Source: the human T2T-CHM13v2.0 reference genome, Homo sapiens
Length of the DNA stretch: 64,000 nt
Reading direction: 5' to 3' (one strand)
NCBI RefSeq assembly: GCF_009914755.1
Contig: NC_060935.1
How positions within the stretch are numbered: position 1 is the stretch's first letter; each line of letters starts with the position of its first letter. Positions 1,952 through 5,000 of the stretch are shown piece after piece. Under the pieces are notes generated by a model that was not told where the DNA came from, did not search any database, and was given only the letters and a program-made list of their open reading frames with translations. A program made the position numbers and the translations under genes.

Positions 1952-2069
1952 GGGATTTATGCCCAGAGGAGAACTGATGCCCAGAAGGTCAAAGAGGATG
2001 TGGTCAGTTATGCCCGCTTCAAGTGGCCCTTGCTCTTCTCCAGGTTTTATGAAGCCTACAAATTCTCAG
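1952..2069 (+). CDS. MYO7A: MYO7A exon 33 (118 nt)
   Basis: ccttccag|GGGATTTAT...TTCTCAG|gtaccc; GIYAQRR...EAYKFS. Confidence 0.97.
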
Positions 2070-5000
2070 GTACCCCGCAGCCTGCAATGCTCCCAGTCCC
2101 TTGCTCTGTAGCTCCAGCCCACAGCCTACAAATTCTCAGGTACCCCGCAGCCTGCAACGCTCCCAGTCCCTTGCTCTGTAGCTCCAGCCCACAGCCTACA
2201 AATTCTCAGGTACCCCGCAGCCTGCAACGCTCCCAGTCCCTTGCTCTGTAGCTCCAGCCCACAGCCTACAAATTCTCAGGTACCCCGCAGCCTGCAACGC
2301 TCCCAGTCCCTTGCTCTGTAGCTCCAGCCCACAGCCTACAAATTCTCAGGTACCCCGCAGCCTGCAATGCTCCCAGTCCCTTGCTCTGTAGCTCCAGCCC
2401 ACAACAGGGGAGGGAAACGTCTTGAGCCAGGGGCCCCCGTCAGTGGACCTCTTGCCTGCGGGATGCTTGGTCTGCTCTGGTCAATGCTGCTGAGTGGGTC
2501 CTGCCTCCCCAACACCCGGTAGCGACTCCATGGCACATCTTATGTGCTCAGTGTGCACGGGATTGAAAAACTGAGTGAGGATTGATTCATTAAGGCACAT
2601 ACTATGTATACAACAGGGTGGCCCAGGGTTCAGACAGGGCCAGCCCTGCTGGGCCGACTCTGTGAAGTCGAGAGTAGCAGATAAAAACCCACACAGGCCA
2701 CTGGCTTAGCCATCCTCGGGCCATCGTTACTGGGCACCTGCTGTGTGCCAGGCCCTGTGCTGATGCTGCTGTTCACAGAACCACCGAGCACCAGGGCCGG
2801 AGGGAACCCTGGGCCTCAGTCCAACCCCTCCCCAGATCCCGCCTTAGTGCAGGGCAGGGGCTTGTCCAAAGCTGCACAAAGACCAGTGGCAGGAGTGGGA
2901 CCCAAACCAATTTCCCAATTGAACACTCTCTTCCTACTGCACTTTGGGTTTTGGCACGTAGCGAGTTTGTGCTCTCTGAGCCTCAGTTTCCGTATCTATA
3001 AAATAGAAATCAGTGTATTGCCACCTGCCTGGCCGTTATGAGATTGAGAAGGGCTGGGCCTGGGTGTGGGAGGCCTGCCTCTCAGTGCCTTGGTCTCGTC
3101 CCAGGCCCCAGTCTCCCCAAGAACGACGTCATCGTGGCCGTCAACTGGACGGGTGTGTACTTTGTGGATGAGCAGGAGCAGGTACTTCTGGAGCTGTCCT
3201 TCCCAGAGATCATGGCCGTGTCCAGCAGCAGGTGAGGAGGCCCGCATGGAGATGCAGACAGACAGAGGGGAAGGAGAGGGGCTGGAGCTTCCCTGCGGGT
3301 CACAGGAAGTGAAGAGGCATGAAGTGGCCTGCCTGGTTGCACGTGATTGGGCAGTTTGTGCCGCACTGTGCAGACCCCTCTGGCACCTCCTAGTGGAGGG
3401 ATGGGCTTGGGCTTTACAGCACATTAAGGCTGTTCTGAGACAGGAATGGGCTGTCAGGACAGGCAGGGGCAGGTGAGTGTGTACAAAAGAGCTTGACCTG
3501 GGGGTTCAGGGGACTGAGTAGCACTCACTCTATGTCTTCATTCCTAAAACAGGAGTCTTAATACTTTTCTCACATAACAGTGGTGGGGAATGAATGCAAT
3601 AATAGATGGGAGAGCTCTTTATAAACTGCAAAGTGCAGTGCACATAGGTGGAATGGTGGGGTGGGTTGCTGGGATTGACTGGCTTTCCCAGCAGTGCAGT
3701 GGCTCCCTCCTCCACCATCTGGGGCTTGTAGCAGTGTCTTTGGGTTGTGTCTGATATGGGCTGGAGTCAGACTGTGTCCAGCACTGACCAGACACATGCC
3801 AGGCACACAGGATGCAGTAGTGACAAGATAGTCCTTGTCCTCTTGGATCTTCAGTCAAGAGAGGAGACAGACATTGAATAGGCTATTTTAAAGCATGGTA
3901 TGATCAGGGCTGTGGGAGGGCAGGGAGGACTTCCTGGAGGAAGTGGCATGTAGGTTGAGATTTAAAGGGTGAGTAGGAATTAGACAGGCAAAGGAGAAGT
4001 AGGCCGGGCCACTGTGGGTCTCCCTCTGGGCCATGCCTGACTCTGGCCAGGCCAGCTCTGACTTAGCCTGAGATGTGTCTGAGCTGGGCCACGTCTCCCA
4101 CTGGTTGGGGCATGACTGACTCAACTGGCCTTGATCTCCTTCAGGGAGTGCCGTGTCTGGCTCTCACTGGGCTGCTCTGATCTTGGCTGTGCTGCGCCTC
4201 ACTCAGGCTGGGCAGGACTGACCCCGGCGGGGCCCTGTTCTCCGTGTTGGTCCTGCAGGGGAGCGAAAACGACGGCCCCCAGCTTCACGCTGGCCACCAT
4301 CAAGGGGGACGAATACACCTTCACCTCCAGTAATGCTGAGGACATTCGTGACCTGGTGGTCACCTTCCTAGAGGGGCTCCGGAAGAGATCTAAGTATGTT
4401 GTGGCCCTGCAGGATAACCCCAACCCCGGTGAGTGGCTGCTGGTATGGACTGCCTGGCACTGGGGGTCAGGGTGTTATGCAGACTGTCTTAGTCCATTTG
4501 TGTTGCTATAATGGAACACTGGAGGCTGGGAGATTTATGAAGAAAAGAGGTTTATTTGGCTCACAGTTCTGCAGGCACTACAAGAAGCATGGTGCTGGCT
4601 GGGCACGGTGGCTTATGCCTGCAATCCCAGAGCTTTGGGAGGCTGAGATGGGAGGATCACTTGAGGCCAGGAGTTCAAGACCAGCCTGGGCAACATAGTG
4701 AGACCCTCGTCTCTACAAAAGGTTAAATAAATTAGCTGGGTGTGGTGGCATGTGCCTGTAGTCATAGCTCTTCAGGAGGCTGAGGTAGAAGGATTACTTG
4801 AGTCCAGGAGGTGGAGGCTGCAGTGAGCCATGATTGTGCCACTGCAGTCCAGCCTGGACAAGAGTGAGACCTCCTCTCTTAAAAAAAAAAAAGAAAAGAA
4901 ACAAAGAGAAAAAAGATGGCACCAGCATCTGCTTCTGATGAAGGCCCCAGGAAGCTTCCACTCATGGCAGAAGGAGAAGGGGTGCCTGCATCAGAAGGAA

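What the first reader, a model, noticed from the sequence alone, without database searches (positions are those of the whole stretch)
2053..2402. VNTR that multiplies the MYO7A exon 33 splice donor five times
Seen: each 70-bp unit carries the last 17 nt of exon 33 plus its donor, so identical TTCTCAG|GTACCC sites sit at 2070, 2140, 2210, 2280 and 2350. Using copy 2 (+70) or copy 3 (+140) shifts the frame; using copy 4 (+210) or copy 5 includes the TAG at 2249-2251. The true donor is itself weak (GTACCC vs GTAAGT). Copies 1 and 5 read CAATGC and copies 2-4 read CAACGC, which suggests recent internal expansion. Inference: copy number could act as a dosage rheostat that diverts MYO7A mRNA to NMD and modifies Usher 1B/DFNB2/DFNA11 severity. 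It could also hide or mis-call exon 33 donor variants in short-read data.
Basis: partly seen in the sequence, partly recalled or inferred. Interest (0 to 1): 0.85.

Follow-up and report, generated by a model that had tools for sequence, protein, structure and literature searches.

The report
MYO7A exon 33 donor repeated fivefold
A 70-base stretch spanning the end of MYO7A exon 33 is repeated five times head to tail, so the intron opens with four exact decoy copies of the splice donor; the same layout has been studied in the clotting-factor gene F7, where the decoys stay silent.

Summary
Window 2053-2403 is a 70-bp x 5.0 tandem array, 99% matched. Its first unit holds the last 17 nt of MYO7A exon 33 (NM_000260.4 c.4324-4441) and the donor. 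Identical GT sites sit at 2070, 2140, 2210, 2280 and 2350. The donor is weak by an empirical weight matrix, at the 5th percentile of 464 real donors.

The layout is a known kind. Borensztajn et al. 2006 (PMC1557585) dissected the same arrangement in F7 IVS7, where only the most upstream site is used. They list IFI6, CBS, LMNB2 and PDGF as further cases; two of the five leak to the next two decoys.

All 22 RefSeq MYO7A transcripts that reach this region end the exon at 2069. The dosage-rheostat idea could not be tested here, and most precedents argue against it. CBS is a published precedent for a copy-number effect.

The short-read worry holds for unit gains and losses but is small for base changes at donor 1.

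Verdict: a new member of a known kind, of moderate interest.

The parts
1952..2069 (+). MYO7A exon 33 (NM_000260.4 c.4324-4441), 118 nt. Its last base is codon position 1. Its acceptor is very strong.
   Evidence: Annotation parsed. Acceptor weight-matrix score 15.04, the 97.6th percentile of 465 real acceptors.
2053..2403 (+). Tandem array of 70 bp x 5.0. Units are 2053-2122, 2123-2192, 2193-2262, 2263-2332 and 2333-2402. The first unit is the last 17 nt of exon 33 plus the first 53 nt of intron 33.
   Evidence: TRF score 688, 99% matches. Unit listing. The repeat finder family D1. Found only at this locus in the CHM13 genome search.
2070..2071 (+). Authentic donor GT (c.4441+1/+2), 9-mer CAG|GTACCC.
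   Evidence: Matrix score 3.38 bits, 5.4th percentile.
2140..2351 (+). Four decoy donors with GT at 2140, 2210, 2280 and 2350. Each is identical to the authentic site over at least 22 nt.
   Evidence: 5 exact matches; same score of 3.38 for all five.
2088..2368 (+). The one variable unit position (36): T at 2088 and 2368; C of a CpG at 2158, 2228 and 2298.
2109..2391 (+). One TAG per unit, at 2109, 2179, 2249, 2319 and 2389. It is the only stop triplet in a unit. Successive copies fall in frames 1, 2, 0, 1, 2, so every frame closes within three units. The AG of each TAG is also an acceptor-like site, and it lies 28 nt before the next decoy donor.
   Evidence: stops and frames. (acceptor-like score 9.14, 41.5th percentile, higher than the real exon 34 acceptor at 8.55).
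2407..2433 (+). Three G-runs (2407-2410, 2412-2414, 2430-2433) just after the array. They lie +58 to +84 from decoy donor 5 but +338 to +364 from the authentic donor.
   Evidence: Sequence read. A role as an intronic enhancer is inference from recalled literature and was not tested.
3105..3231 (+). MYO7A exon 34, the acceptor that all five donors would join.
   Evidence: Annotation. Acceptor score 8.55, 34th percentile.

Best explanation
This is a minisatellite that arose by tandem duplication of the exon 33-intron 33 junction of MYO7A. The authentic donor is therefore followed by four exact but normally silent decoy donors.

The splicing machinery takes the first donor downstream of the very strong exon 33 acceptor. 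This is selection by position, described as exon definition or as the 'oriented scanning' shown for F7 IVS7. The decoys are removed with the intron, and gain or loss of units leaves the mRNA unchanged because the first junction is always rebuilt.

The decoys matter in two situations:
- When donor 1 is damaged, the next copy is expected to take over. That gives a frameshift or a premature stop, not a rescue.
- In variant calling and naming, a change in unit number can be written as an exon-overlapping indel.

Shown here: the anatomy, the frames, the donor and acceptor scores, and the annotation. Inferred by analogy: that the decoys are silent and that the next copy takes over.
For: - Array and identical donors.
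- The first unit spans the annotated junction.
- All 22 of 22 RefSeq MYO7A transcripts that reach this region have exon 1952-2069 as their only exon between 1900 and 3104.
- The exon 33 acceptor is at the 97.6th percentile and the exon is 118 nt.
- No RNA structure hides the decoys. The region folds worse than its shuffles (-126.6 against -148.6 +/- 5.4 kcal/mol, z = +4.09).
- Precedent read in the introduction, first results section and discussion of PMC1557585. In F7 the five pseudo-sites are functional but unused. Knocking out sites in turn activates the next most upstream one. No other species appeared among 50 clones. LMNB2 (100-bp unit) and PDGF (81-bp unit) also use only the authentic site.
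- A later review repeats the F7 account (PMC6627357).
- Every decoy gives a frameshift or a stop, so heavy use of them would cripple a gene that works in carriers of this reference haplotype (inference).
Against: - The donor is weak (5.4th percentile), so high occupancy of site 1 is not a given.
- My crude 5-mer exon-versus-intron score does not favour donor 1. The 53 nt upstream of donor 1 score -0.311 (3rd percentile of real exon ends). The intronic 53 nt upstream of the decoys score +0.086 and +0.228. Nothing in the local sequence explains the choice, only position.
- The G-runs that would have followed the ancestral donor now follow decoy 5.
- Two of the five precedent genes, IFI6 and CBS, do use the two nearest decoys (PMC1557585 introduction).
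- The F7 paper's text has no occurrence of NMD, nonsense-mediated or cycloheximide, so low-level unproductive use was not excluded even there.
- RefSeq annotation would not list NMD substrates.
Confidence: 0.7

Rival explanations
1. The decoy donors are used in proportion to their number. Each extra unit sends more MYO7A pre-mRNA to a frameshifted or stop-containing product that NMD degrades, so array length tunes MYO7A dosage and disease severity.
For: - All decoys are exact copies of a weak authentic site.
- Every decoy leads to a premature stop with many exon junctions downstream.
- There is no structural masking and no exon-like advantage for donor 1.
- Decoy 5 keeps the G-run flank.
- The CBS exon 13-intron 13 31-bp VNTR is tabulated with raised homocysteine and lowered enzyme activity (PMC1395315 Table 4). 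PMC1557585 states that it uses two pseudo-sites.
- MYO7A rs2276288 shows allelic expression imbalance in 14 of 17 informative retina samples, so a common cis-acting modifier of unknown cause exists (PMC5664133 Table 1).
Against: - In F7, 50 constructs in three cell types showed no competition from identical decoys, or even from stronger ones (abstract, discussion and first results section).
- In the leaky cases only the two nearest decoys are used, so leak would not scale with copy number beyond three units.
- The leaky case whose unit length I saw (CBS, 31 bp) has a unit shorter than the silent ones (37, 81 and 100 bp). At 70 bp, MYO7A falls among the silent ones (inference; the passages I read give no unit length for IFI6).
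- No such isoform is annotated.
- No paper links this array to a phenotype.
Confidence: 0.1
2. A constant small leak. Decoy 2, and perhaps decoy 3, is used at a low level that does not depend on array length, as in IFI6 and CBS. This gives a small constant stream of NMD substrates with no dosage consequence.
For: Two of the five genes with this layout behave this way (PMC1557585 introduction). The donor is weak. NMD would hide the products from annotation (inference).
Against: The unit length of 70 bp resembles the silent cases more than the leaky one whose unit length I saw (CBS, 31 bp). There is no annotated isoform. The protein word search with the 99-aa read-through peptide gave 3 hits among 4 scored candidates, and all three cover only the exon 33 part (29-40% of the query). 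A further 219 candidates known only from samples were left out unseen, so this blank means little.
Confidence: 0.15
3. Array length acts through spacing rather than through the decoys. Each added unit moves the downstream intronic G-runs further from the authentic donor. That would change the efficiency of exon 33 definition, and so the rate of exon skipping or intron retention.
For: The G-runs at 2407-2433 lie 338-364 nt from donor 1 but would lie 58-84 nt away in a one-unit allele. The authentic donor is weak.
Against: [quoted passage not shown] I saw only the heading in the outline and the summary of that point in the discussion. Nothing tested here bears on it. The enhancer role of G-runs is recalled and was not checked.
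Confidence: 0.04
4. Assembly artefact. On this reading the five copies are a mis-assembly of a shorter or longer array in T2T-CHM13.
For: None found.
Against: The array is only 351 bp, far shorter than the long reads behind this assembly (recalled). It has clean unique flanks and an internal T/C marker pattern. StratoMod independently speaks of a VNTR in MYO7A that fits the description 'partly exonic but mostly intronic'.
Confidence: 0.01

Closest known systems
F7 IVS7 37-bp minisatellite (Borensztajn et al. 2006, PMC1557585)
   Same: The first monomer spans the exon-intron boundary. The authentic donor is weak and is followed by several decoys of identical sequence. Secondary-structure masking was looked for and not found, in their work and in mine. 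The gene causes disease when mutated.
   Different: - The F7 unit is 37 bp (4 exonic plus 33 intronic nt) in 5-9 copies. The MYO7A unit is 70 bp (17 plus 53) in 5 copies here.
- In F7 the fifth and sixth decoys keep the frame open. In MYO7A every decoy gives a frameshift or a stop.
- F7 polymorphism and decoy silence are measured. For MYO7A neither is.
CBS exon 13-intron 13 31-bp VNTR, written c.1444_1467+7(16_21)
   Same: The unit spans the exon end and the donor (PMC2630376).
   Different: The unit is much shorter and there are many more copies (16-21). Two decoys are said to be used in addition to the authentic site. I saw the primary paper (Lievers et al. 2001) only as a reference-list title.
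IFI6 (6-16) intron 2, LMNB2 and PDGF intron 4 minisatellites
   Same: The donor is reiterated by a minisatellite whose first unit spans the junction (PMC1557585 introduction).
   Different: IFI6 has 25 decoys, and the two nearest are used constitutively. LMNB2 (100 bp x 10-15) and PDGF (81 bp x 16-18) use only the authentic site. I did not read any primary paper for these three.
ABCA7 intron 18 VNTR and other splicing-associated tandem repeats
   Same: The length of an intronic tandem repeat is associated with a splicing outcome. For ABCA7 (PMC5954066) I saw only the title and the start of the abstract in a search listing. For the genome-wide catalogue of splicing-associated repeats (PMC10078293) I read passages.
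   Different: Nothing I read about those repeats, which was titles and a few passages only, describes a reiterated authentic donor. MYO7A does not occur in the main text of PMC10078293; its supplements were not open to me.

Membership tests
Minisatellite whose first monomer spans an exon-intron boundary and reiterates the 5' splice site (F7 IVS7 type) | Head-to-tail array of units in the minisatellite size range | tested here: met
   70 bp x 5.0, 99% matches, score 688.
Minisatellite whose first monomer spans an exon-intron boundary and reiterates the 5' splice site (F7 IVS7 type) | The first unit contains the annotated exon end and the authentic donor | tested here: met
   The unit starts at 2053, the exon ends at 2069 and the GT is at 2070.
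Minisatellite whose first monomer spans an exon-intron boundary and reiterates the 5' splice site (F7 IVS7 type) | [quoted passage not shown] | tested here: met
   5 exact copies of a 22-nt stretch across the junction, all with the same matrix score.
Minisatellite whose first monomer spans an exon-intron boundary and reiterates the 5' splice site (F7 IVS7 type) | Copy number is polymorphic in the population | not testable with these tools
   Only one haplotype is available, and reads and other assemblies are closed. StratoMod's mention of a MYO7A VNTR is indirect and does not give coordinates.
Minisatellite whose first monomer spans an exon-intron boundary and reiterates the 5' splice site (F7 IVS7 type) | Only the most upstream site is used physiologically | tested here: inconclusive
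   22 of 22 RefSeq transcripts that reach the region end the exon at 2069. Annotation does not see NMD substrates, and no RNA data were available.
Minisatellite whose first monomer spans an exon-intron boundary and reiterates the 5' splice site (F7 IVS7 type) | The next pseudo-site is activated when the authentic donor is inactivated | not testable with these tools
   This needs patient RNA or minigenes. PMC9540557 reports c.4441+2delT with in-silico scores only in the passages I read.
Unproductive splicing coupled to NMD used as a dosage control | The alternative site gives a premature stop well upstream of the last exon junction | tested here: met
   All four decoys give a frameshift or the TAG at 2249, with many coding exons downstream.
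Unproductive splicing coupled to NMD used as a dosage control | The alternative site is actually used, and its product rises when NMD is blocked | not testable with these tools
   No RNA-seq access. No annotated isoform. No protein fragment carries the read-through peptide, and that blank means little.

The most novel reading that the evidence does not exclude
The weak authentic donor does not fully win against its four exact copies. A measurable share of MYO7A pre-mRNA is spliced at a decoy and lost to NMD. The share depends on unit number, or on which copy keeps the G-run flank. The array would then be a common cis-acting modifier of MYO7A dosage. It could contribute to the allelic expression imbalance reported for MYO7A in human retina (PMC5664133) and to variable severity of MYO7A disease.
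Probability: 0.1. Interest if true: 0.7.

Novelty: new member of a known kind. Interest (0 to 1): 0.35.

Why it matters
MYO7A is a major gene for Usher syndrome and deafness and a target for gene therapy. There are three practical points.

1. Variants at c.4441+1/+2 should not be assumed to cause exon skipping. By analogy with F7, the next decoy 70 nt downstream is the likely cryptic site. The reading frame shows that this is still a null outcome. For the published c.4441+2delT, use of decoy 2 would add 69 nt, but an in-frame TAG comes 13 codons past the exon end. Skipping the 118-nt exon would also shift the frame.

2. A gain or loss of a copy-1-type unit can be written, left-aligned, as a 70-bp indel that starts at 2053 inside exon 33 and removes the donor. 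The same change written by the 3' rule is c.4441+19_4441+88, purely intronic, and it rebuilds the junction exactly. Automatic annotation could therefore call a harmless length change a loss-of-function variant.

3. The locus is a second natural test, in a disease gene, of how the spliceosome chooses among identical 5' splice sites. Here every decoy is unproductive, so any leak has a cost.

Tried and rejected
- **RNA structure masking the decoys: rejected.** Region 1952-2460 folds less stably than its shuffles (z = +4.09).
- **Exon context favouring donor 1: not supported.** The 5-mer exon/intron log-odds score rates the end of exon 33 as less exon-like than the intronic part of the unit. The score was trained and evaluated on the same GC-rich loci and probably tracks base composition, so it is weak evidence either way.
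- **Other copies of the unit in the genome: none.** The own-genome search returned three places, all inside the array. That tool warns that its counts of repeats are lower bounds.
- **Other tandem arrays in the MYO7A part of the window (1-21000).** Only two short two-copy arrays, at 9897 and 14939, and neither is exonic. The 69 kb of MYO7A upstream of the window was not examined. I therefore cannot prove that StratoMod's 'MYO7A VNTR' is this array.
- **Protein evidence for read-through isoforms.** The word search with the 99-aa translation of 1952-2248 gave 3 hits among 4 scored candidates. All three (a fish, a rotifer and a crab) cover only the exon 33 part. A further 219 candidates were left out unseen, and full-length myosins fall outside the length range.
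- **Literature on this array: ten searches in all.**
  - MYO7A with VNTR: 11 papers. I opened the 3 whose VNTR mention was not clearly about USH1C or SVA elements, judging from the listing.
  - MYO7A with 'c.4441+1': 0 papers.
  - MYO7A with '4441+': 1 paper.
  - MYO7A with 'intron 33': 2 papers; I opened one, where the term concerns ABCA4, and did not open the other, whose title concerns another gene.
  - MYO7A, 'exon 33' and 'tandem repeat', any two of three: 111 papers, 25 listed, 3 opened, all irrelevant.
  - MYO7A with minisatellite: 1 paper, where the term concerns PRPF31.
  - None describes the array beyond StratoMod's single sentence. Subscription-journal papers on MYO7A gene structure from the 1990s are not in the library, and supplements were closed. 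An earlier description may therefore exist.
- **Dating the array from unit identity: rejected as uninformative.** With a recalled neutral rate of about 0.5e-9 per base per year, three identical 70-bp units are expected to collect well under one difference in several million years (inference).
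Full report
**The observation.** The sequence at 2053-2403 is a perfect-register tandem array with a 70-nt period, 5.0 copies, 99% matches and no indels (TRF score 688; read directly). The units start at 2053, 2123, 2193, 2263 and 2333. They differ at one position only, unit position 36: T at 2088 and 2368, and C within a CpG at 2158, 2228 and 2298.

RefSeq places the end of a MYO7A coding exon at 2069. 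In NM_000260.4 this is exon 33 of 49, c.4324-4441, so the GT at 2070 is c.4441+1. The first unit is therefore the last 17 nt of exon 33 plus the first 53 nt of intron 33. Exact copies of the donor and its context recur with GT at 2140, 2210, 2280 and 2350. A 22-nt stretch across the junction occurs 5 times in the window, against none in 100 shuffles even with three mismatches allowed. In the own-genome search the unit was found nowhere else in CHM13 (that tool's repeat counts are lower bounds).

**Frame consequences.**
- Exon 33 ends on codon position 1.
- Donor 2 adds 70 nt and shifts the frame, with a stop in exon 34.
- Donor 3 adds 140 nt and shifts the frame, with a stop 153 codons from the exon 33 start, beyond exon 34.
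- Donors 4 and 5 include the in-frame TAG at 2249-2251.
- Each unit holds one stop triplet, this TAG. Because 70 is not a multiple of 3, successive copies fall in frames 1, 2, 0, 1, 2. Every frame therefore closes within three units, and no decoy can give an in-frame product. This differs from F7, where the fifth and sixth decoys stay open (PMC1557585 discussion).

**Strength of the sites.** I built position weight matrices from splice sites of RefSeq-select transcripts. The sequence came from 20 gene-dense 9.9-kb stretches of chr11 plus the window. This sample is biased towards short-intron, GC-rich genes.
- There were 469 donors, 465 of them GT. Leaving out the site under test gave 464 for training.
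- The 9-mer CAG|GTACCC scores 3.38 bits, the 5.4th percentile. The median is 8.59, and one other real donor has the same 9-mer.
- 'Weak' therefore holds by this measure. It agrees with the low SSF (71) and GeneSplicer (3) values printed for this donor in Table 1 of PMC9540557, but not with that table's MaxEnt 9, NNSPLICE 1 and HSF 99. I could not run those programs.
- The exon 33 acceptor is very strong: 15.04, the 97.6th percentile of 465 acceptors. The exon 34 acceptor is middling: 8.55, the 34th percentile.

**Other features of the unit.**
- The AG of each TAG sits behind a pyrimidine-rich stretch and scores 9.14 as an acceptor (41.5th percentile), above the real exon 34 acceptor. It lies 28 nt before the next decoy donor. 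The array therefore also holds four 28-nt pseudo-exons. I judge them too short to be defined as exons (inference).
- The unit is C-rich and G-poor: 14 A, 30 C, 12 G and 14 T.
- The region 1952-2460 folds worse than its shuffles (z = +4.09), so the decoys are not hidden in structure.
- Three G-runs lie just after the array at 2407-2433. In a one-unit ancestor they would have been 58-84 nt from the donor. Now decoy 5 has that flank, and the authentic donor is 338-364 nt away.

**A test that went against my expectation.** I expected exon 33 to give donor 1 an exon-like upstream context that the decoys lack. A 5-mer exon-versus-intron log-odds score, built from 448 internal exons and 454 introns of the same loci, says otherwise.
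- The 53 nt upstream of the shared part score -0.311 for donor 1, the 3rd percentile of real exon ends.
- They score +0.086 and +0.228 for the decoys.

The score is crude and probably tracks GC content. It gives no sequence-level reason for the choice of donor 1. Position remains the only explanation.

**What is annotated.** Of 24 MYO7A transcript rows, 22 reach this region. All 22 have 1952-2069 as their only exon between 1900 and 3104, and the other two end upstream. No decoy-donor isoform is annotated. A protein word search with the 99-aa read-through peptide found only three short fragments from a fish, a rotifer and a crab, and they match the exon 33 part alone. Both blanks are weak: annotation omits NMD substrates, and the word search could not see full-length proteins or sample-only entries.

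**What is in print about MYO7A.** Six MYO7A-specific searches found no description of this array.
- The one relevant sentence is in StratoMod (PMC11471861, passage read). [quoted passage not shown] It gives no coordinates, and the supplements were closed.
- PMC9540557 reports c.4441+2delT at this donor with in-silico scores (passage read).
- PMC5664133 lists allelic expression imbalance for MYO7A rs2276288 in 14 of 17 informative retina samples, 13 of them in one direction (Table 1 row and legend read). A common cis-acting influence on MYO7A mRNA therefore exists, but nothing ties it to this array.

**The known kind.** Borensztajn et al. 2006 (PMC1557585) describe exactly this layout. I read the abstract, introduction, first results section and discussion.
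- In F7 IVS7 (37-bp unit, 5-9 copies) only the most upstream site is used. Knocking sites out in turn activates the next one and increasingly causes exon skipping. Decoys strengthened to a consensus value of 91 still do not compete. The result holds in three cell types.
- The introduction names four more genes. IFI6 has 25 decoys, and the two nearest are used. CBS IVS13 has two decoys in use. LMNB2 (100-bp unit) and PDGF intron 4 (81-bp unit) use the authentic site only.
- The CBS array is written c.1444_1467+7(16_21) in PMC2630376. A review table lists it with raised homocysteine and lowered enzyme activity (PMC1395315). I saw the primary paper only as a cited title.
- The MYO7A array is thus a further member of a described class, and the rheostat idea has a published forerunner in CBS.

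**How it most likely works.** I commit to the silent-decoy model at 0.7. Exon 33 is defined from its very strong acceptor, the first donor met downstream is taken, and the remaining copies leave with the intron. Unit number then does not matter for the mRNA.
- The anatomy, frames and scores are shown. The silence of the decoys is inferred from F7, LMNB2 and PDGF, from the annotation, and from the fact that this haplotype serves as a reference for a gene that every decoy would inactivate.
- Against the model stand the weakness of the donor, the lack of any local sequence advantage, the displaced G-runs, and the two leaky precedents. In addition, the terms NMD, nonsense-mediated and cycloheximide do not occur in the F7 paper's text.
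- A simple occupancy argument (inference) points the same way. If the sites are rarely occupied, each occupied site is used about equally, whichever rule breaks ties. A weak first donor therefore needs specific help from across the exon to win outright.
- I give the constant small leak 0.15, the copy-number rheostat 0.10, a spacing effect 0.04 and an assembly artefact 0.01.

**Variant calling.** The hazard is real for length changes and small for base changes at donor 1.
- Of all possible reads covering the GT at 2070-2071, those with another placement within one mismatch number 18 of 74 at 75 nt, 18 of 99 at 100 nt, 18 of 149 at 150 nt and 0 of 249 at 250 nt. The rest are anchored in unique exon sequence.
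- Unit deletions fall into three classes of equivalent placements. A copy-1-type deletion can be written anywhere from 2053 (inside the exon and across the donor) to 2088 (c.4441+19). A C-type deletion runs from 2089 to 2298, and the last class from 2299 to 2334.
- A left-aligned record of the first class would be annotated as destroying the exon end and donor, although it rebuilds them exactly.

**Origin.** It also fits two CpG-to-TpG changes in the edge units. One haplotype cannot decide between these. The near-identity of such short units says little about age (inference from a recalled mutation rate).

**Verdict.** The feature is real and is a new member of a known kind. Interest is moderate, at 0.35. 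The value lies in clinical variant interpretation at c.4441+1/+2, in the naming of length variants, and in a second natural test of donor choice in which every decoy is costly.

Noticed in passing
window 7828-8685 (MYO7A intron after exon 7670-7827): The intron begins ATATCC rather than GT (matrix score -10.13). It has a TTCCTTGAC stretch at 8668-8676 whose A lies 10 nt before the intron's last base, and it ends in AG. From memory, this looks like a U12-type (minor spliceosome) intron of the rare AT-AG kind. A search for MYO7A with 'U12-type' listed 3 papers, none about this by title, and I did not open them.
   Followed up: partly
window 2110-2139, 2180-2209, 2250-2279, 2320-2349: Each unit carries an acceptor-like site (score 9.14, 41.5th percentile, above the real exon 34 acceptor) 28 nt before the next decoy donor. 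The array therefore holds four 28-nt pseudo-exons, and its AG is the AG of the unit's only stop triplet.
   Followed up: partly
window 2407-2433: Three G-runs directly follow the array. The repeat has moved them from about +58 to about +338 relative to the authentic donor, while decoy 5 keeps them close.
   Followed up: no
window 2053-2403: The array is not among the stretches listed as masked repeats of 100 bases or more in the supplied annotation. The only such stretch listed between window positions 1 and 4500 is 509-858. Repeat-masked analyses would therefore treat the array as unique sequence.
   Followed up: no
window 10228 and 16548: Two more MYO7A donors share the unusual GTAC start and score as low as the exon 33 donor: GAG|GTACAG at 3.31 and AAG|GTACAC at 3.75 bits.
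   Followed up: no
window 1952-2069: Exon 33 as a whole scores as intron-like in the 5-mer exon/intron measure (-0.223, 5th percentile of real exon windows), although its acceptor is very strong.
   Followed up: no
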